Sequence record: NC_054933.1
DNA: 64,000 nt
From: Escherichia phage teqhad
Direction: 5' to 3' (one strand)
Shown: piece by piece, positions 1,997 to 56,505 of the stretch
Numbering within the stretch: position 1 is the stretch's first letter
Layout: each line of letters opens with the position of its first letter
Program-made: the position numbers and the translations under genes
The notes under the pieces: model-generated
The model's database searches: none
What the model saw: only the letters and a program-made list of their open reading frames with translations
Told to the model about the DNA's origin: nothing

Positions 1997-3698
<1,702 letters not shown>

Positions 3699-3739
3699 TA
3701 AATATTATAAACTAATTAAAGCCCAGATTAGGAGAAATC

Positions 3740-6880
<3,141 letters not shown>

Positions 6881-47581: not shown

Positions 47582-48760
47582 TTAAAAATATTTTTTAAAA
47601 CTCATCATAACTTTATCATCAACATCATTATCAATCTGTGCAACAAGATAAGATGACAGTTCTACTTCTTGTGGCGCGGATTGAACATTATCAGAATTAA
47701 GATATTCACGAATCCAAGGATATGGATGTTTAACCGGAGCATCGGTAATTGGGCATGGAAGACCACACTGTTTCATACGAGATACAGTTAAGTAATCAAT
47801 AAAGCTCCACATGCTATTTGTATTTAATCCAGGAACATCGCCATCTTTAAATAAATGAACTGCCCAATCTTTTTCTTGGCGGTTAACTTCCATGAAAATA
47901 TCAACTGCTTCTTGTTCACACTCTTGAGCAATTTTAACCCATTCATCGCCATCAGTACCAGATTGAAGTTGACGAATAATATATTGTGTACCTTTAAGAT
48001 GAAGCTGCTCATCACGTGCAATGAACTTCATAATCTTTGCATTGCCTTCCATAATTTCCATGTTCTTATGGAAGTTAAAGGTACATGCGAAAGATACATA
48101 AAAACGAATAGCTTCCAATGCGTTGATTACATGCAAACAGAGGTAAAGAGATTTCATTAGCTCACGCTTCCAATATGTCTCATGCTCAATAGCATCTTCA
48201 ATAACATCTTCGTCTGCATTAATTTCTTTTTGGTATTCGATATCAGCTTTAGCGTTTTCCCAATAACGAGTTTTAGTCAGAACATCATCATAATAACGTC
48301 CAATGGATTCAGCACGTTTCATAATAGCTTCATCTAATACAATCTCATCAAATACCTTCGATGGATCAGTATAAAGATTTCGCATGATATGTGTATATGA
48401 ACGAGAGTGAATAGTTTCACTAAAAGTCCACGTAGCAACCCATGTATCAAGGCTTGGGTCTGAAATTAATGACATAAGTACAGCAGACGGCGCACGACCC
48501 TGAATGCTATCCAAAAGTGATTGATACTTCAGATTATTAGTAAAAATATTTTGCTGATACTGAGGAAGCTTATTAAACTGTGCAGCATCCATCATTAAGT
48601 TTACTTCTTCAGGACGCCAGAAAAATGATAATTGCTTTTCGGTTAAATCTTCAAAAACTTTATGGCGTTGAATATCATAACGCGCAATACCAAGACCTGA
48701 ACCAAAAAACATAGGTTCTTTTAAAACATCAACTGGATTTGTATTAAAAACTGTGCTCAT
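47582..48760 (-). CDS. nrdB: Ribonucleotide reductase small subunit (aerobic), uninterrupted
   Basis: 392 aa continuous ORF, MSTVFNTNPVDVLKEPMFF...; no intron-sized interruption. Confidence 0.95.
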   Translation of the reverse strand: MSTVFNTNPVDVLKEPMFFGSGLGIARYDIQRHKVFEDLTEKQLSFFWRPEEVNLMMDAAQFNKLPQYQQNIFTNNLKYQSLLDSIQGRAPSAVLMSLISDPSLDTWVATWTFSETIHSRSYTHIMRNLYTDPSKVFDEIVLDEAIMKRAESIGRYYDDVLTKTRYWENAKADIEYQKEINADEDVIEDAIEHETYWKRELMKSLYLCLHVINALEAIRFYVSFACTFNFHKNMEIMEGNAKIMKFIARDEQLHLKGTQYIIRQLQSGTDGDEWVKIAQECEQEAVDIFMEVNRQEKDWAVHLFKDGDVPGLNTNSMWSFIDYLTVSRMKQCGLPCPITDAPVKHPYPWIREYLNSDNVQSAPQEVELSSYLVAQIDNDVDDKVMMSFKKYF

Positions 48761-48811
48761 AAATTTTCCGCTTAGTTAATAGTTGGTGACTCGTCCGTGA
48801 GTCAAATTATA

Positions 48812-51076
48812 TCATAATTTACAGGATGAACAATCTTCAGCTTTTGGAGTTTCTATTTCATAATCATCAGTACCAGAACCATCACGGGTATTATGATAAT
48901 AGAAATTTTTTCCGCCAAAATACCAAAAATACAAAAGGTCATCAATCATTATTGACATTGGAACCTTTCCTTTTGGAAAAATCTGTGGGTCATAATATGT
49001 ATTCGCTGAAGCTGATTGACATACCCATTTCAGCATAATAGCTACCTGCGTAAGATAAGGTTTATTACCTTTCTTAGCTAATTTCCATGTATAATCATAG
49101 AGGTCTATGTTATGCTCAATATTGGGCACGACTTGATTAAAGGAGCCCTCTTTTGATTCTTTAACAGAGACTGGTCCACGTGGAGGCTCGATACCGTTTG
49201 TACTGTTAGAAACTTGGGAAGATGACTCACATGGCATAAGTGCTGATAATGTGCTATTACGGATGCCAAAGAGCTTAAGGTCTTCCCGCAGCGACGACCA
49301 GTCACAAACGTATTTTGGAGCTGCGATTTGGTCAATCTTTTTATTGTACCAGTCGATAGGTAATTCGCCTCGAGACCAACGAGTGTCTGAATAATATTCA
49401 CAAGGTCCTTTTTCTTTGGCGAGCTTAATGGATGCTTTAATGAGTCCATACTGTAATCTCTCAAATAGTTCATGTGTTAAATCGTTAGCATCTTCATAAG
49501 AAGCAAAGTTACTTGCCAGCCAAGCTGCATAGTTAGTAACACCTACACCAAGGTTTCGACGCTTTTTAGCTTTTTCTGCTTCAGGAACTGGATATCCTTG
49601 GTAATCCAAAAGATTATCAAGAGCACGAACTTGAACTTCTGCTAATTCATTAATTTTATCTTGGTCTTGCCAATCGAAGTTATCCAGCACAAATGCAGAT
49701 AACGTGCACAATCCAATTTCAGCATCAGGGCTATTCACATCATTTGTTGGAATAGCAATTTCACAGCACAAGTTACTCTGACGAATAGGTGCCTTTTCAC
49801 GAATAAACGGAGTATAGTTATTCGTATTATCAATGAACTGCACATAAATCCTTGCTGTTCCTGAGCGTTCAGTCATGAGCAATTCAAATAGTTCACGGGC
49901 TTTAATGCGCTTTTTACGAATATTAGGGTCTTTTTCTGCTGCTTCGTATAATTCACGGAAACGGTCTTGGTCTTTAAAATAAGAATAATAAAGCTCTCCA
50001 CCCATTTCATGTGGACTGAACAAAGTAATGTAATCGTTCTTTCCAAAACGTTCCATCATTAGATCATTCAGTTGAACACCATAATCCATATGACGAATGC
50101 GGTTTTCTTCTACACCTTTGTTATTTTTCAAAACGAGAAGATTTTCAACTTCCAAATGCCAAATAGGATAATAAGCAGTAGCAGCGCCGCCACGAATTCC
50201 ACCCTGTGAGCATGATTTAACAGCAGTCTGAAAATGTTTCCAAAAAGGAATAACACCGGTATGGCGTACTTCACCCATGCCAATCTTAGAACCTTCAGCA
50301 CGAATCATACCAACGTTAATACCAATTCCAGCGCGTTTAGAGATATATTCAACAATTGAAGCGGAAGCCTTATTGATAGACTTTAATGAATCACCTGCCT
50401 CAATAACAACACATGAACTAAACTGTCGAGTCGGAGTACGGCAACCAGCCATAATAGGAGTTGGCAATGAAATCTGTCGAGTAGATACTGCTTCATAAAA
50501 ACGGATAACGTGTTTTAATCTATCAACAGGTTCATCTTGATGCAATGCCATTCCAATAGTCATAAATGCAAACTGTGGAGTTTCATAAATTTGACCAGTG
50601 GTTTTATCTTTAACTAGATATTTTTCTTTTAATTGCATCGCCCCGGAATAAGTAAATTCCATATCCCGCTCGTGCTTAATTTTTGATTCTAAAAATGTAA
50701 TTTCTTCTGCTGAATATTTTGACAATAATTCAGGGTCGTATTTACCTTCATTTACACAGTAAGAAATATGGTCAATAAATGAACGTGGTTCATACTGCCC
50801 ATAAACATGCTTACGAAGAGCGAACATTAGACAACGTGCAGCTACATATTGATAATCAGGCTCTTCAACCGAAATAGAATTCGCAGCGGCCTTAATGACA
50901 ATAGTCTGAATATCATCAGTTGTCATTCCATCACGGAGATAAGATTTAATATTTTCATATAATTCATAAGGATCTACCGATGTTCCTTCAGCTGCCCAAG
51001 ATAAAACTTTAATAATTTTTTGTGGGTCAAAGCTCTGAGAAACACCACTACTTTTGATAACATTAATTAATTGCAT
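48812..51076 (-). CDS. nrdA: Ribonucleotide reductase large subunit (aerobic)
   Basis: 754 aa; catalytic Cys-containing motifs; only 51 bp separates it from nrdB. Confidence 0.97.
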   Translation of the reverse strand: MQLINVIKSSGVSQSFDPQKIIKVLSWAAEGTSVDPYELYENIKSYLRDGMTTDDIQTIVIKAAANSISVEEPDYQYVAARCLMFALRKHVYGQYEPRSFIDHISYCVNEGKYDPELLSKYSAEEITFLESKIKHERDMEFTYSGAMQLKEKYLVKDKTTGQIYETPQFAFMTIGMALHQDEPVDRLKHVIRFYEAVSTRQISLPTPIMAGCRTPTRQFSSCVVIEAGDSLKSINKASASIVEYISKRAGIGINVGMIRAEGSKIGMGEVRHTGVIPFWKHFQTAVKSCSQGGIRGGAATAYYPIWHLEVENLLVLKNNKGVEENRIRHMDYGVQLNDLMMERFGKNDYITLFSPHEMGGELYYSYFKDQDRFRELYEAAEKDPNIRKKRIKARELFELLMTERSGTARIYVQFIDNTNNYTPFIREKAPIRQSNLCCEIAIPTNDVNSPDAEIGLCTLSAFVLDNFDWQDQDKINELAEVQVRALDNLLDYQGYPVPEAEKAKKRRNLGVGVTNYAAWLASNFASYEDANDLTHELFERLQYGLIKASIKLAKEKGPCEYYSDTRWSRGELPIDWYNKKIDQIAAPKYVCDWSSLREDLKLFGIRNSTLSALMPCESSSQVSNSTNGIEPPRGPVSVKESKEGSFNQVVPNIEHNIDLYDYTWKLAKKGNKPYLTQVAIMLKWVCQSASANTYYDPQIFPKGKVPMSIMIDDLLYFWYFGGKNFYYHNTRDGSGTDDYEIETPKAEDCSSCKL

Positions 51077-51393
51077 AAGTCCTCAACTTGAAAATCGTCT
51101 TTAAACAATCGGTTAACTATATGAGCTATTATATCACCATGACACGGCTTTGGTTTACATGTGCATCCTAGCCTCATTCCACGTAAAGGCTCTAAATGTG
51201 CTTTAGTTATTTCTCCGGATTTAATTCGACGTATAAAATCTTTTTTGAATAATTCAATGGCAGCCTCCCGGCTGCCAGCATCTTTACCGACGTAATTTCC
51301 CCAAAATGTACCGCGGTGAATATTAACATCAAAGTCGGATTTGTATTTATTCACTACCCGGCATAGACGGCCCGGTTGGTAATAATTCTTCAT
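51067..51393 (-). CDS. Hypothetical protein (nrdA.1 position)
   Basis: 108 aa ORF; Cys/His-containing C-terminus ([12 protein letters not shown]). Confidence 0.65.
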
Positions 51394-51622
51394 ATTGTTT
51401 TTCCGTTAAAACAGTAATATCGTAGTAACAGTCAGAAGAAGTTTTAACTGTGGAAATTTTATTGTCAAAATACTCACGAGTCATTTTATGAGTATAGTAT
51501 TTTTTACCATAAATGGTAATAGGCTGTTCTGGTCCTGGAACTTCTAACTCGCTTGGATTAGGAAGTGTAAAAAGAACGACACCAGAAGTATCTTTAAATC
51601 GTAAAATCATATATCCTCTCAA
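51347..51622 (-). CDS. Hypothetical protein (nrdA.2 position)
   Basis: 91 aa ORF; overlaps the downstream ORF by 47 nt in a different frame. Confidence 0.6.
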
Positions 51623-51633
51623 TTAAATTAAAA

Positions 51634-52494
51634 TTATACCGCCATTTTTCCTTTAATTGGCAGATGAGATACATAGTTGTTAAGAACAAAATTATGAGGC
51701 TTTGCAAATTGACTCAACCAAAATACCTGCGATTCTGTGTCCCATTCATCAAATTCATCTGGAAATTTTAATTGTAATTCGCATAAATCCATAGGTTCAC
51801 GACGCAAAATTTCTTTACATTGTTCTACGTGATTCATATAGATATGAGTATTACCACCAGAAAATATCAAATCTCCCGGAATAAGATTACACATCTTAGC
51901 TACAATATGAACTAACGTAGCATATGATGCAATATTAAATGGAAGACCGAGGAAAACATCTACCGAACGTTGATACCACTGCAAATCTAAATAGCCATTA
52001 CGCACATTAAACTGATAGAACATATGACAAGGAGGTAATGCCATATATTTAAGTTCAGCTGGATTCCACGCAGAAACGATTTGACGTCGATCAGTTGGTA
52101 ATTTTTTAATACGATCAATAGTTTCAACTAATTGATCCACACCACCGAAATCACGCCATTGTTTACCATATATAGGACCAAGTTCACCACTATGATATCC
52201 TAGGTCTTTAGCCTGGTTTTCATAGTTATCGTCCCAAACTGTTTTGCCTTGGATTAACGAATCGTGTTGAATTAATCGTAAATCATTAACATTTGTGCTT
52301 CCTGATAAAAACCATATTAGCTCAGCAATGCATGCATTCCAGGCGAGCTTCTTAGTTGTTACTGCAGGAAAACCTTTGGTTAAATCCCAACGCAATTTAG
52401 TACCGAACAGAGCAATTGTTCCTGTGCCCGTTCGGTCATCGGTTTCATAGCCATTTTCAAAAATGTCTTTAATTAAATCTTGGTATTGTTTCAT
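51634..52494 (-). CDS. td: Thymidylate synthase, uninterrupted (no group I intron)
   Basis: 286 aa continuous ORF starting MKQYQDLIKDIFENGYETDDRTGTGT...; active-site region ...LPPCH... present. Confidence 0.97.
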   Translation of the reverse strand: MKQYQDLIKDIFENGYETDDRTGTGTIALFGTKLRWDLTKGFPAVTTKKLAWNACIAELIWFLSGSTNVNDLRLIQHDSLIQGKTVWDDNYENQAKDLGYHSGELGPIYGKQWRDFGGVDQLVETIDRIKKLPTDRRQIVSAWNPAELKYMALPPCHMFYQFNVRNGYLDLQWYQRSVDVFLGLPFNIASYATLVHIVAKMCNLIPGDLIFSGGNTHIYMNHVEQCKEILRREPMDLCELQLKFPDEFDEWDTESQVFWLSQFAKPHNFVLNNYVSHLPIKGKMAV

Positions 52495-52539
52495 TTAGTA
52501 CCTTATATAAATTATAATACATTTTATGAAGCTAAATAA

Positions 52540-52887
52540 TCAATACGGTTTAGCATCAAATTTTCTCTCAATTTCAGGTGTGAAATATAATTCTTTACCG
52601 CGTTTGGAAAAGCGACCAATAATATGATAATTATTCTCATCAAACGTAATATTACCAATATCCATAGCTTTCAACCAAATATCGATATTTCTATCCAGCT
52701 TTATGTCAAAATTCCAATACGGAGAACTATTACCGAAAATACTGCAAGCGGATTCAGTGAAACAGCTACTATAAATCTTGTCTTTAGGAACTACTAATTG
52801 ATAGACACCTTTAATAAACTGAGGACCCTGCCATTTAGGTTGTTTCACGTCTTTTTCTAATAGAATAGGGTAATAATTAAAATTCAT
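52540..52887 (-). CDS. Orphan ORF inserted between frd and td
   Basis: 115 aa from the ATG at 52887 (track ORF starts at an upstream GTG, 52899); no recognisable motif; sits in a ~0.4 kb segment splitting the normally overlapping frd/td pair. Confidence 0.55.
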   Translation of the reverse strand: MNFNYYPILLEKDVKQPKWQGPQFIKGVYQLVVPKDKIYSSCFTESACSIFGNSSPYWNFDIKLDRNIDIWLKAMDIGNITFDENNYHIIGRFSKRGKELYFTPEIERKFDAKPY

Positions 52888-52907
52888 ATTTTCCGCCACG
52901 CGTTATT

Positions 52908-53734
<827 letters not shown>

Positions 53735-53744
53735 ATTATTTTCC

Positions 53745-53987
53745 TTAAACAGACTTTTTCACAATTTTCCAATCAGCTTTAAACTGCTCGACGTCAGAAT
53801 GGTAAATCCAAAATCCTGCGCTTTCTCCGTCTTCATAAAGAGGGCATCCATCACATTCATCTTCCCATCCCATGTCACGTAAAAGATGTTCAGCTTTTTC
53901 AACAAGTTCAGAATCTTTACCGATGATATTAAAATACCATTTACCTCTAACTTCCGAATCTTTGATGCTCTGACGTTGTAATCTCAT
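53745..53987 (-). CDS. Hypothetical protein (frd.2 position)
   Basis: 80 aa ORF. Confidence 0.6.
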   Translation of the reverse strand: MRLQRQSIKDSEVRGKWYFNIIGKDSELVEKAEHLLRDMGWEDECDGCPLYEDGESAGFWIYHSDVEQFKADWKIVKKSV

Positions 53988-54045
53988 TTTATTCTCCTCA
54001 GTAGTTGATAGGGTAATAGTATCACACTACTACCCTTTCTGTAAA

Positions 54046-54426
54046 CTACTTTTTGAAAGTTTTTCGCAAAAGTTTAATGATTTCGTCTACATTGTTTTCG
54101 TCAACAATACAGTGAATTTTTGTTACGCCATAAACCTTGTCTTTGACTTCATCTTCTTCAGAAATTGGTTCTTTATACTCACGAAAACAATGAAATTCAT
54201 CTTCGCAAATTTCTAAAAGTCTATCTTTGAGGTAAAAATGCTTTCCATTTGCGCATTCAATGTGTTTTACTGCTTTATATCCATTAGCGACGGAAACTTC
54301 TTTAACTTCAAACCATCCGCCATTATCTCGAATAGCTTTAACTATTGATGAATTAGAACGTGGGCTGTAATTAATAAATGTATCAATAAGTCTTGGAACA
54401 AGTTCATACTTTTTACCAGTATACAT
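54046..54426 (-). CDS. Hypothetical protein (frd.3 position)
   Basis: 126 aa ORF. Confidence 0.65.
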   Translation of the reverse strand: MYTGKKYELVPRLIDTFINYSPRSNSSIVKAIRDNGGWFEVKEVSVANGYKAVKHIECANGKHFYLKDRLLEICEDEFHCFREYKEPISEEDEVKDKVYGVTKIHCIVDENNVDEIIKLLRKTFKK

Positions 54427-54470
54427 TACGTTTTCCTCATTTTGATAGGGGCTTGATAGCCCCTTGATAA

Positions 54471-54719
54471 TTATTGTTCAATCAGTCCCATGTAAAATTC
54501 TGCGTCTTCAGAATCCATGCCATCGCAATATTCATTAGCCATAAAGCGGGTGAGGTCTTCAAGAGGACCTTCAATAACGATTTGAATACTCCAAAACTTA
54601 GAATCTTGCACGCTTGTAATACTAAGTTCAGGATAACGATTACGAATAATTTCTTCAATATATTCAAAATCAACGATGTCAATATCAACTTTAGCCATAT
54701 TGTTTTCCTCTTTAATCAT
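54471..54719 (-). CDS. Hypothetical acidic protein upstream of the frd cluster
   Basis: 82 aa ORF; AAGAGGAAAA ribosome-binding site; early-promoter-like GTTTACA-N17-TACTAT upstream on the minus strand. Confidence 0.55.
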
Positions 54720-54802
54720 CAGCAGTATTGCCGATAGTTGTATAGTACCACAGTCCTTGTGGTATGTAAACCGTTTTGTGAAAAAATTTTTAAAATAAAA
54801 AA

Positions 54803-54821
54803 GGGGACCCTAGAGGTCCCC
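54803..54821 (-). terminator. Strong intrinsic terminator after gene 32 (minus strand)
   Basis: ggggacc-ctaga-ggtcccc; minus-strand RNA continues with a long U-run. Confidence 0.65.
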
Positions 54822-54843
54822 AATTAATTAGTAATATAATCTA

Positions 54844-55752
54844 TTAAAGGTCATTCAAAAGGTCATCCAGGTCCGTGTCATCAGCACTAGATGAACTGCC
54901 AGAGCTTGAGCTCATAAAATCATCTTCAGTTTTTGTATTGAAGTCATCAACATTGAATGCATCCAAATCATCAGCAACTTTATCAGCTTTCTTAGCAGCA
55001 GTTGCAGCGGCACCGCCCATCACAGCAGTTCCCATAACTTGACCAAATTTAGTGCTCAGTTCTTCAAACGATTTGAATTTATCTTTAGAAGTCATTTCAG
55101 AAAGGTCAACCATTTGTTCGAACAGTTCTTTCTGGAAAGATTCATCGTCAATGTTTGGAATCGCAGATTGATTCAGGAATTTAGATTCGTCGTAGTTACT
55201 AAATCCAGAAACCTGTTTAACTTTCAGTACAAAGTTAGCACCTTCCCACGGACAAGTTACATCAACCGGAGTTTCACCCATTTCAACATCAACCGCAATC
55301 ATCGCGTTGATTTTATCCCAGATTTTCTTACCGAAACGATATTTAAATACTTTACCTTCGTTTTCTGGAGCAGCTGGGTCTTTTACAACAAGAATGTTAG
55401 CCCAGTAAGAAGTTTTACGTTTAACAAGACTGTACTCTTTGTTGTCAGTGTTGTACAGATCATTTTTACTGATGTATTGACATACTGGGCAAGAATCGTA
55501 ATCACCGTGGGTAGATGAACAGTTTTCAATATACCATTTACCATTTTTCTTGAAACCGTGATTTACAAGAATTGCGAATGGTGCTTGTTCATCATTTTTA
55601 GACGGAAGAAAACGAATTACTGCTTGACCGTTACCCGCATTGTCGAGTTTCAGTTTCCACTCGCCTTTATCTTCAGAAGAAAAACCACCTTTATTTCCAG
55701 CCAGTTTAGCCATTTGTGCAGCGAGTTCAGCAGTAGATTTACGTTTAAACAT
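54844..55752 (-). CDS. 32: Single-stranded DNA-binding protein gp32
   Basis: 302 aa; [17 protein letters not shown]...; zinc-binding Cys/His; acidic Ser-rich C-terminus; T4 gp32. Confidence 0.98.
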
Positions 55753-55835
55753 TTTTATTTCCTTTTTAATTTAATTAACAGTTGGTGCTATGACGATGTA
55801 TGACCTCATAGCTGGTCAGTGAGATAATTATAATC
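55753..55835 (-). promoter_or_regulatory. Gene 32 autoregulatory translational operator (A/U-rich leader plus pseudoknot region)
   Basis: Minus-strand leader ...ACUGACCAGCUAUGAGGUCAUACAUCGUCAUAGCACC...UUAAUUAAAUUAAAAAGGAAAUAAAAAUG has the architecture of the T4 gene 32 operator (recalled, not aligned). Confidence 0.55.
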
Positions 55836-55843
55836 TATTTATA
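55836..55843 (-). promoter_or_regulatory. Late promoter (TATAAATA on minus strand) upstream of gene 32
   Basis: Plus-strand TATTTATA in the 32-59 intergenic region. Confidence 0.45.
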
Positions 55844-55851
55844 ATAAGCAA

Positions 55852-56505
55852 TTAATACTTACAAGATTTCACAGTTTCAATGAAAACATTTTTAGCTTTC
55901 TGTGAATCAATATTTAAAATTTTTCTATAAGCCTTTAACTTTATAGAATAATTATTCCAGACTAAATTATCAGTCTGTTCATCATGTTTATCAATTATAT
56001 TTAAAAATGAATCAAGCAAGATAAACGTCTCAAACGAAATTATGTTCGATTGCAGAAGTTTAAAAATATAACTTGACTGAACTTTTGGATTATACTCAAA
56101 GATTTCTTTAAAAGCAGAAACTTCAACTTTTTTACTAAAATAATAAATGTTGCGAATATCTTCTTCAAACTTAAATTTAATTTGCTTTAAGCGTCCGATA
56201 TATTCACGATAAAACACAAGTGCATCAGCGTCAGAGATGTCACCAATCCAAGCATCTTGGTTAGCAACAAGATTGCTTATAAAGATTAAAGCAAGTTCCT
56301 TTAATTTATATTTTTCTGATAACTTCTGGAAAAAATACTTATCCCTTCGCTTTTGATAAGCGGCATCAGACACCCGCATGCACCAATTATACTTAATAAC
56401 ATCATACTTTCCATTCATATGCTGTTTTATCATTAAGTATAATTTATAAACTGATTTACCATCAATGTATCTTTCACCACCAGCAGGCATGCGGAGTTTA
56501 ATCAT
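55852..56505 (-). CDS. 59: Helicase loader gp59
   Basis: 217 aa, MIKLRMPAGGERYIDGKSVYKLYLMIK...; T4 gp59. Confidence 0.95.
   Translation of the reverse strand: MIKLRMPAGGERYIDGKSVYKLYLMIKQHMNGKYDVIKYNWCMRVSDAAYQKRRDKYFFQKLSEKYKLKELALIFISNLVANQDAWIGDISDADALVFYREYIGRLKQIKFKFEEDIRNIYYFSKKVEVSAFKEIFEYNPKVQSSYIFKLLQSNIISFETFILLDSFLNIIDKHDEQTDNLVWNNYSIKLKAYRKILNIDSQKAKNVFIETVKSCKY

What the first reader, a model, noticed from the sequence alone, without database searches (positions are those of the whole stretch)
52495..52910. ~0.4 kb insertion with an orphan ORF exactly at the frd-td junction, flanked by a duplicated td start (ATGAAA)
In T4 the frd stop and td start overlap (ATGA), per the published overlap of the DHFR and thymidylate synthase genes. 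Here the frd stop is still embedded in aATGAaa-TAA at 52903..52911 on the minus strand, so the first two td codons (ATG AAA) are present but hit a stop immediately. The real td start (ATG AAA CAA TAC CAA GAT) lies 414 bp further downstream at 52494. The intervening segment carries a 115-aa ORF (52540..52887) with no recognisable motif. The 9-bp direct repeat ATGAAA(T/C)AA at both edges looks like the footprint of an insertion event at the gene junction. Small orphan ORFs inserted at conserved junctions in T-even genomes are often host-takeover or anti-defence genes.
Basis: partly seen in the sequence, partly recalled or inferred. Interest (0 to 1): 0.62.

Follow-up and report, generated by a model that had tools for sequence, protein, structure and literature searches.

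The report
Conserved small gene that T4 lost
The extra 0.4 kb between the dihydrofolate reductase and thymidylate synthase genes is an old, strongly conserved small phage gene of unknown function found in most T4 relatives, and phage T4 is the odd one out because it deleted it.

Summary
Relative to T4 the window carries 417 bp (not 414) between frd and td. The segment is bounded by a 12-nt direct repeat, TAAATGAAA(T/C)AA, and holds a 115-aa ORF.

The ORF is not an orphan and not a recent insertion.
- About 360 public T-even genomes carry it at 90% amino-acid identity or more, including T2, T6, RB18 and ECML-134.
- It belongs to phrog_1928 and is annotated 'RB32ORF229c' in T6.
- Homologues at 26-47% identity sit in the same frd-td slot in at least five other genera, usually as a tandem pair of paralogues.
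- Only 32 records, mostly T4 itself and its near-identical strains, have the direct frd/td ATGA overlap.

The T4 junction is therefore best read as a deletion between the two short repeats.

The gene is under very strong purifying selection (dN/dS 0.01-0.07, lower than frd). The predicted fold is confident (pLDDT 87.5): a small beta-barrel with OB-like topology. The family has no invariant catalytic-type residue and no match in Pfam, NCBIfam, PADLOC or PDB sequences. Function is still unknown. My best guess, at low confidence, is a non-enzymatic binding protein co-expressed with DHFR and TS. The feature is ordinary and already catalogued.

The parts
52908..53489 (-). frd (dihydrofolate reductase), 193 aa. 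Its stop TGA is at 52910..52908.
   Evidence: ORF list. 95% aa identity to T4 Frd. Annotated as DHFR in all matching records.
52903..52914 (-). Left copy of the 12-nt direct repeat, TAAATGAAATAA. It covers the last frd codon, the frd stop and 5 nt beyond.
   Evidence: the repeat finder family D1. Conserved in T2, T6 and, as AAATGAAATA, in Mosigvirus PTK.
52540..52887 (-). 115-aa gene (13.7 kDa, pI 8.5) of family phrog_1928, called 'RB32ORF229c' in T6. Predicted small beta-barrel of OB-like topology.
   Evidence: - Coding and family. dN/dS 0.01-0.07.
- Structure: AF2 models with pLDDT 76.9 and 87.5 give the same topology.
- Conservation: invariant Q16 W19 G27 G91 K95 G97 F102.
52495..52539 (-). 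45-nt ORF-td spacer.
- Promoter-like elements: TTGATT-N18-TATTAT, or the MotA-box-like ATTTAGCTTCA at 52537..52527 with TAATTT/TATAAT at 52516..52509.
- td ribosome-binding site AAGG at 52504..52501.
- The spacer is absent from T4, and 32 nt of it are absent from Mosigvirus PTK.
   Evidence: Sequence. Sigma-70-like consensus match at 52543..52514, with the count in the region not above shuffles. The annotators of phage Lutter mark a promoter at the same place. PTK lacks it. Promoter function is inferred, not shown.
52486..52497 (-). Right copy of the direct repeat, TAAATGAAACAA. It covers 3 nt upstream of td and td codons 1-3.
   Evidence: the repeat finder family D1. T4 keeps exactly this copy at its fused junction.
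51634..52494 (-). td (thymidylate synthase), 286 aa, with no intron.
   Evidence: ORF list. No I-TevI homologue in the window.

Best explanation
**Origin (shown, about 0.85).** The 417-bp segment is an ancestral resident of the frd-td slot of enterobacterial T-even-type phages, not an insertion. The older arrangement is frd - family member A - paralogue B - td. Tequatrovirus and Mosigvirus kept only member A, which is this ORF. T4 and its closest kin lost it through a deletion between the two TAAATGAAA(Y)AA repeats. That deletion fuses the frd stop to the td start and creates the well-known ATGA overlap. Only a deletion at that microhomology would leave both enzyme genes intact.

**The gene (shown).** It is a genuine protein-coding gene under stronger purifying selection than frd. 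It lies 20 nt after the frd stop with no promoter-like element in that gap, so it is probably transcribed with frd. In other genera its start overlaps the frd stop and its stop overlaps the next gene's start.

**Function (inferred, about 0.25).** The product is a 13.7-kDa single-domain beta-barrel of OB-like topology. Its invariant residues are aromatic, basic or glycine (Q16, W19, G27, G91, K95, G97, F102) and none is an invariant acidic, His or Cys residue. It is therefore most likely a non-enzymatic binding protein made together with DHFR and thymidylate synthase before replication. It may bind a nucleic acid or a partner protein of the nucleotide-synthesis or replication machinery. It is dispensable, at least in laboratory E. 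coli, because T4 lacks it.

The confidence value of 0.75 refers to the origin and gene-identity parts of this statement. The functional part stands at about 0.25.
For: Distribution:
- 361 records at 90% aa identity or more, including T2, T6, RB18 and ECML-134. All cluster members are named 'hypothetical protein'.
- Only 32 records hold the T4-type junction: T4 strains, RB55, RB59 and a few others.
- A third allele, a 68-aa gene, occupies the slot in about 135 Tequatrovirus records.

Synteny:
- Homologues lie between frd and td in five other genera and in 14 of 14 IMG/VR loci.
- All 10 of those loci that are only distantly related to the window (frd 43-53% identical) carry a tandem pair.
- The paralogy is visible in the alignment.

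Age:
- Against the Mosigvirus copy, dS is 0.99 and dN is 0.036.
- Both repeat copies are present there.

T4 flanks:
- The first 60 nt of T4 td differ from the window at 2 positions.
- They differ from the 68-aa-allele phage Sf21 at 9 positions.

Selection:
- dN/dS is 0.01-0.07 for the ORF.
- It is 0.17-0.22 for frd and 0.05-0.14 for td.

Structure:
- Two independent AF2 runs give b1 6-12, b2 27-34, b3 62-64, helix 68-77, b4 86-96, b5 99-104.

No catalytic signature:
- Invariant columns.
- No hits in Pfam, NCBIfam or PADLOC.
Against: - The polarity rests on parsimony, not on a rooted genome phylogeny with the alleles mapped.
- The 3' end of T4 frd is marginally closer to the 68-aa-allele phages (99.3% against 97-99%), so T4 could be a recombinant.
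- There is no direct evidence of expression, of a binding partner or of any phenotype.
- Linkage to frd and td may only reflect history in a tightly packed genome rather than shared function.
Confidence: 0.75

Rival explanations
1. First reader's model. The ancestral state is the T4-like frd/td overlap. A 0.4-kb cassette carrying an orphan gene was inserted there and duplicated the td start (ATGAAA) as a target-site footprint.
For: The block is bounded by an 11/12 direct repeat that includes the td start. After the frd stop the sequence reads ATG AAA TAA, like a decayed td start.
Against: - Homologues sit in the same slot across at least six genera, and in 14 of 14 metagenomic loci.
- Synonymous divergence of the ORF between genera (dS 0.99) is of the same order as its flanks (0.43 and 1.69), so there is no sign of recent transfer.
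- Both repeat copies predate the Tequatrovirus/Mosigvirus split.
- The ORF-less state is confined to 32 T4-centred records.
- The segment has no transposase, integrase or nuclease, and no terminal inverted repeats. The only end-proximal inverted repeat is an A/T-only 9-mer, and one arm lies inside frd coding sequence that T4 also has.
Confidence: 0.05
2. The ORF is a free-standing homing endonuclease, as annotated in the BASEL phages Bas43 and FriedrichZschokke. It would spread by cutting ORF-less frd/td junctions.
For: Two GenBank records call it 'putative homing endonuclease'. T-even genomes do carry optional endonuclease genes between conserved genes, such as segG and mobE in T4.
Against: - No GIY-YIG, HNH, LAGLIDADG or other nuclease domain appears in the ORF or in 30 family members.
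- There is no invariant His, Asp, Glu or Cys.
- At 115 aa it is too short for a catalytic domain plus a DNA-binding domain.
- The locus is fixed and divergence looks vertical, unlike the sporadic distribution of such elements.
- The predicted fold is a small beta-barrel.
Confidence: 0.03
3. This is the same gene with the same history, but its role is host takeover or counter-defence. It would inhibit a host factor or a defence system rather than work with the nucleotide-synthesis enzymes.
For: - It is small, made before replication, dispensable and polymorphic: three alleles occupy the slot within one genus.
- Paralogues are tandemly duplicated in other genera.
- The family is restricted to phages: 16 hits among 1.84 billion representatives.

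These traits are typical of phage accessory inhibitors. That generalisation is my own knowledge, not a tool result.
Against: - There is no similarity to any described inhibitor or defence-related family.
- dN/dS is extremely low and there is no sign of diversifying selection, which is unusual for arms-race proteins.
- Strict linkage to frd and td over long evolutionary distances suggests a housekeeping-type association.
Confidence: 0.2
4. It is a chance open reading frame in AT-rich spacer DNA and not a gene.
For: None beyond the lack of a known domain.
Against: - Against Mosigvirus PTK the ORF has 35 synonymous and 10 non-synonymous differences, and 13 against 1 for T2.
- The reading frame is conserved in more than 550 records.
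- The AF2 fold is confident.
- The HMM family includes distant members.
Confidence: 0.01

Closest known systems
'RB32ORF229c' / phrog_1928 hypothetical proteins of T2, T6, RB18, ECML-134, AR1, wV7, PP01 and others
   Same: It is the same gene. Identity is 100% to RB18 and SHFML-11, and the exact sequence is on record under ECML-134 and teqhad accessions (AFO10758.1). Identity is 99% to T2 and T6. The position between frd and td is the same.
   Different: Nothing. It is uncharacterised everywhere.
T4 frd/td ATGA overlap junction (GenBank M12742, NC_000866)
   Same: The flanking sequences are the same. The T4 junction equals the window sequence with the 417 bp between the two repeats removed.
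   Different: T4 lacks the ORF and the promoter-like spacer. This state is held by only 32 records.
OB-fold binding domains (RPA14/32, Teb1, HIN, S1, SSB, RecO N-terminal domain)
   Same: The predicted order of elements is b1-b2-b3-helix-b4-b5, and these folds dominate the structural hit lists. Conserved aromatic and basic residues lie on b4, and W19 lies in the b1-b2 loop.
Free-standing homing endonuclease genes of T-even phages (segG, mobE)
   Same: These are also optional ORFs between conserved genes and are present or absent among close relatives.
   Different: This ORF has no nuclease domain, a fixed locus and vertical-looking divergence.
Deletions between short direct repeats in T4 (classical rII deletion studies; cited from my own knowledge, not retrieved here)
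   Same: The T4 junction is what recombination or slippage between two 9-12-nt repeats would leave.
   Different: This is a natural allele that became fixed, not a laboratory mutant. The event itself is inferred.

Membership tests
phrog_1928 (phage protein family of unknown function) | Significant full-length match to the family HMM | tested here: met
   E 1.4e-35, residues 4-111 on profile positions 2-125 of 126.
frd-td slot family (orthologue A / paralogue B of Tevenvirinae), as defined here | Motifs Q-x-x-W near the N-terminus, G-[IV]-[YH] in b2, and I-G-R-F-x-K-x-G-x(4)-F at the C-terminal hairpin | tested here: met
   Alignments A2, A3 and A5. Invariant residues are Q16, W19, G27, G91, K95, G97 and F102.
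frd-td slot family (orthologue A / paralogue B of Tevenvirinae), as defined here | Location between frd and td | tested here: met
   14 of 14 IMG/VR loci and all annotated phage loci examined.
Homing endonuclease (GIY-YIG / HNH / LAGLIDADG) | A recognisable nuclease domain with conserved catalytic residues | tested here: not met
   No Pfam or NCBIfam hit for the ORF. None of 31 members reaches significance. No invariant His, Asp, Glu or Cys.
Homing endonuclease (GIY-YIG / HNH / LAGLIDADG) | Sporadic, mobile distribution with biased inheritance | tested here: not met
   The locus is fixed across genera, and synonymous divergence is comparable to the flanks. Biased inheritance in crosses cannot be tested with these tools.
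Transposable insertion with target-site duplication | Terminal inverted repeats and/or a transposase inside the element | tested here: not met
   The only gene inside is the 115-aa ORF. No terminal inverted repeats were found: pair I3 is an A/T-only 9-mer with one arm in frd coding sequence.
OB fold | Five-stranded closed beta-barrel with a helix between b3 and b4 | tested here: inconclusive
OB fold | Binding of ssDNA, RNA, oligosaccharide or a protein on the b2-b3 / L12 / L45 face | not testable with these tools
   This needs EMSA or pull-down experiments.
Known anti-phage defence proteins (PADLOC) | Match to a defence-system protein model | tested here: not met
   0 families at E up to 1.

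The most novel reading that the evidence does not exclude
The protein is an unrecognised, strongly conserved OB-like accessory subunit of the T-even thymidylate / dNTP-synthesis module. It would tether DHFR-TS to DNA or to the replisome. Classical biochemistry would have missed it because all of that work was done on T4, the rare lineage that deleted the gene.
Probability: 0.1. Interest if true: 0.55.

Novelty: already known. Interest (0 to 1): 0.22.

Why it matters
The practical lesson is to be careful when using T4 as the reference for T-even genomes. At this junction T4 is the exception: about 32 records have its arrangement against about 360 with the 115-aa gene and about 135 with a 68-aa gene. 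The textbook frd/td overlap is a secondary deletion scar.

The gene itself is an uncharacterised hypothetical protein already present in hundreds of GenBank records, so finding it here is not new. What remains interesting is that a dispensable 115-aa protein evolves more slowly than the enzyme gene upstream of it. It has also stayed between DHFR and thymidylate synthase across several genera. Its function is a reasonable small target for a knock-out or pull-down study.

Tried and rejected
**Domain and sequence searches: nothing significant.**
- Pfam gave no hit on the ORF, and nothing significant (best E 0.014) on 31 family members.
- NCBIfam and PADLOC gave no family hit.
- The PDB sequence-profile search gave no significant match (best E 0.67).

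**Structure searches.**
- Foldseek on PDB gave a best E of 0.38.
- BFVD returned only uncharacterised T4-like phage proteins.
- The afdb50 library was unavailable.

**Literature.** 'RB32ORF229c' and 'phrog_1928' returned no paper. Two broader searches found nothing on this gene. The Petrov 2010 review mentions frd only as an auxiliary metabolism gene.

**Link to the td intron: rejected.**
- T6 has both the ORF and the intron.
- T4 has the intron only.
- T2 and the window have the ORF only.

**Other checks.**
- Second copy in the window: an HMM search of all six-frame ORFs found only this one.
- Terminal inverted repeats: rejected.
- Promoter in the ORF-td spacer: consensus matches exist, but the regional count is not above shuffles (11 against 12.3), so it stays a candidate.

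Full report
**1. What is in the sequence**

The window is a T-even (Tequatrovirus-type) phage genome segment. The nucleotide-metabolism genes lie on the minus strand:
- gene 32 at 55752..54844
- frd.3, frd.2 and frd.1
- an 81-aa ORF
- frd at 53489..52908
- the ORF in question at 52887..52540
- td at 52494..51634, with no intron
- nrdA.2, nrdA.1, nrdA and nrdB

T4 itself (NC_000866) has frd at 145109..145690 and td ending at 145112, a 4-nt ATGA overlap. Aligning the two junctions shows one clean block of extra DNA in the window.

The block is bounded by a 12-nt direct repeat with one mismatch, TAAATGAAA(T/C)AA, at 52914..52903 and 52497..52486. Start-to-start spacing is 417 nt.

The exact 9-mer occurs 10 times in the window against 3.3 expected. 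Three occurrences are at true gene starts. It is a fairly common gene-boundary word, but two copies exactly at the T4 breakpoints are not chance.

**2. The ORF is a real gene and is not an orphan**

tblastn of the 115-aa product finds 553 phage records. Of these, 361 are at 90% identity or more and 192 are below 60%. The 801-nt region is present at 95-99% identity in several hundred Escherichia, Shigella, Yersinia and other phages.

Carriers include T6, where the annotators label it 'RB32ORF229c', T2, RB18, RB51, AR1, wV7, PP01 and ECML-134. The exact protein is in public databases under many accessions, all named 'hypothetical protein'. It matches phrog_1928 ('unknown function') at E 1.4e-35.

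The substitution pattern shows it codes for protein:

| Comparison with the window | Synonymous differences | Non-synonymous differences | dN/dS (ORF) |
|---|---|---|---|
| T2 | 13 | 1 | 0.01 |
| Mosigvirus PTK | 35 | 10 | 0.04 |

Across all four comparisons (T2, T6, Bas43 and PTK) dN/dS is 0.01-0.07 for the ORF. It is 0.17-0.22 for frd and 0.05-0.14 for td.

At the protein level the ORF is 93% identical between the window and PTK, where Frd and Td are only 80-81%.

**3. Polarity of the indel**

Homologues at 26-47% identity lie in the same place in other genera:
- Kanagawavirus (Kosakonia phage 305)
- Jiaodavirus (Klebsiella phage Mineola)
- Roskildevirus (Erwinia phage Cronus)
- Moonvirus (Salmonella phage KM16)
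- an unclassified Klebsiella phage

In these genomes the gene is usually translationally coupled, with frd stop / ORF start and ORF stop / next start overlapping.

Several of these genomes carry a second, paralogous copy next to the first. It has an inserted 'PTIEQYKRNP'-type segment but the same Q-K-K-W, H-G-[ILV]-Y and G-R-F-x-K-x-G-S-x-[ILV]-x-F motifs.

A pattern scan of IMG/VR returned 14 loci. In all 14 the family member lies between frd and td. All 10 loci that are only distantly related to the window (Frd 43-53% identical) carry the tandem pair.

In the Mosigvirus copy both repeat copies are present, although synonymous sites in the ORF are near saturation (dS 0.99). The ORF's dS is of the same order as its flanks (0.43 for frd, 1.69 for td). 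There is therefore no sign of recent lateral arrival.

A 44-nt probe that can only seed on the fused T4 junction finds just 32 records. These are T4 strains and sequence fragments, RB55, RB59 and about a dozen other isolates.

A third allele exists. About 135 Tequatrovirus records, such as Shigella phage Sf21, carry a 68-aa gene in the slot instead. In a Klebsiella phage that 68-aa gene coexists with both family members.

The simplest history is a multi-gene ancestral slot that different lineages trimmed differently. T4 removed everything. The T4 junction equals the window sequence after recombination or slippage between the two repeats. The first 60 nt of T4 td are of the 115-aa-allele type: 2 differences from the window against 9 from Sf21.

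Only a deletion at that microhomology leaves frd with a stop and td with a start. This explains why this particular deletion survived. Deletion between short direct repeats is a classical T4 mutational mechanism (my own knowledge, not retrieved here).

I put the deletion-in-T4 reading at about 0.85 and the insertion reading at about 0.05. The segment has no transposase, no nuclease and no terminal inverted repeats.

**4. What the protein looks like**

The protein is 13.7 kDa with pI 8.5. There is no hit in Pfam, NCBIfam or PADLOC, and no significant PDB sequence match, for it or for 30 relatives.

The family is confined to T4-like phages:
- 16 hits among 1.84 billion representative proteins
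- 30 hits in the profile search
- only uncharacterised T4-like phage proteins in BFVD, reaching as far as Aeromonas phages at marginal scores

Two AlphaFold2 runs on different alignments agree. The paralogue-rich alignment gave pLDDT 76.9. The orthologue alignment gave pLDDT 87.5 and pTM 0.81. Both predict b1 6-12, b2 27-34, b3 62-64, helix 68-77, a short strand 80-82, b4 86-96 and b5 99-104. That is the element order of an OB fold.

The invariant positions are Q16, W19, G27, G91, K95, G97 and F102, with N79 and F93 nearly invariant. No acidic residue, His or Cys is invariant. This argues against an enzyme. It fits a binding surface built from aromatic and basic side chains on b4 and the b1-b2 loop.

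**5. How it most likely works**

Shown:
- It is a conserved gene placed 20 nt after frd. It is followed by a 45-nt spacer and then td.
- In other genera it overlaps its neighbours.

Inferred:
- It is transcribed with frd in the prereplicative period and translated at levels linked to DHFR and TS.
- The spacer after it carries promoter-like elements. One is TTGATT-N18-TATTAT. The other is a MotA-box-like ATTTAGCTTCA with a TAnnnT element 12 nt downstream. Together with an AAGG Shine-Dalgarno, these would give td its own start signals. The Lutter annotators marked a promoter at the same place.
- T4 and Mosigvirus PTK lack this element. The regional count of consensus matches is not above shuffles, so promoter function is unproven.

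My best functional guess, at about 0.25, is a non-enzymatic OB-like binding protein. It would act with the nucleotide-synthesis or replication machinery and is dispensable in laboratory hosts. The main functional rival, at about 0.2, is a host-directed or counter-defence inhibitor. The very low dN/dS and the strict linkage to frd and td weigh somewhat against that rival.

The 'putative homing endonuclease' label in two BASEL records fails both tests that could be run: there is no nuclease domain or catalytic residues, and the distribution is not mobile.

**6. Comparison with what is known, and verdict**

The gene is identical or nearly identical to annotated hypothetical proteins in hundreds of genomes and belongs to a catalogued PHROG. 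As a feature it is already known. No paper in the searchable library mentions it by its ORF name or PHROG number.

Two points are worth keeping:
- T4 is the outlier at this junction, and the textbook overlap is a deletion scar.
- The gene is unusually constrained for a dispensable small ORF.

Interest is low to moderate (0.22). The most novel reading still open is a missed accessory subunit of the thymidylate / dNTP-synthesis module. I give it a probability of about 0.1.

Noticed in passing
window 53489..53734 (-): An 81-aa ORF lies directly upstream of frd, with its stop overlapping the frd start. It is 96% identical to T6 'RB32ORF231c'. T4 lacks it and has a 71-nt gap between frd.1 and frd. 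This is a second indel relative to T4 within 1 kb of the finding.
   Followed up: partly
window 47582..56505: The window phage lacks every T4 homing-endonuclease gene of this region. There is no mobE or nrdB.1 between nrdA and nrdB, no SegG between genes 32 and 59, and no I-TevI. Both td and nrdB are uninterrupted.
   Followed up: partly
L009 2539-2745 (Shigella phage Sf21); L010; L005 3148-3354: The frd-td slot has an alternative allele. A 68-aa gene, annotated DUF4858 in one record and 'flagellar biosynthesis protein' in others, occupies it in about 135 Tequatrovirus records. Copies at 79% identity occur in Klebsiella phages, and copies at about 43% in Phapecoctavirus-type phages. In one Klebsiella phage it coexists with both family members.
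   Followed up: partly
L002 2817-3176; L005 2748-3143; L006 2787-3134; L004 2059-2493; L018-L027: Outside Tequatrovirus and Mosigvirus the family occurs as a tandem pair of diverged paralogues between frd and td. The second copy carries a 20-residue insertion of the 'PTIEQYKRNP' type after the Q-K-K-W motif.
   Followed up: yes
L011 894-1511 (Mosigvirus phage PTK): Two extra A residues before the ATGA make frd read 12 codons further and overlap the start of the 115-aa gene. The 32-nt promoter-like spacer before td is missing.
   Followed up: partly
window 54046..54426 (-): The frd.2 homologue is only 64% identical to T4 Frd.2, while the neighbouring frd.1 and frd.3 products are 100% identical to T4. 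This is a sharply mosaic patch.
   Followed up: no
L010 2745-3925 (phage Shinka): td is annotated as two separate CDS (2745-3296 and 3611-3925) with a 314-nt gap. That is much shorter than the T4 intron with I-TevI, which suggests an ORF-less td intron or a deletion derivative.
   Followed up: no
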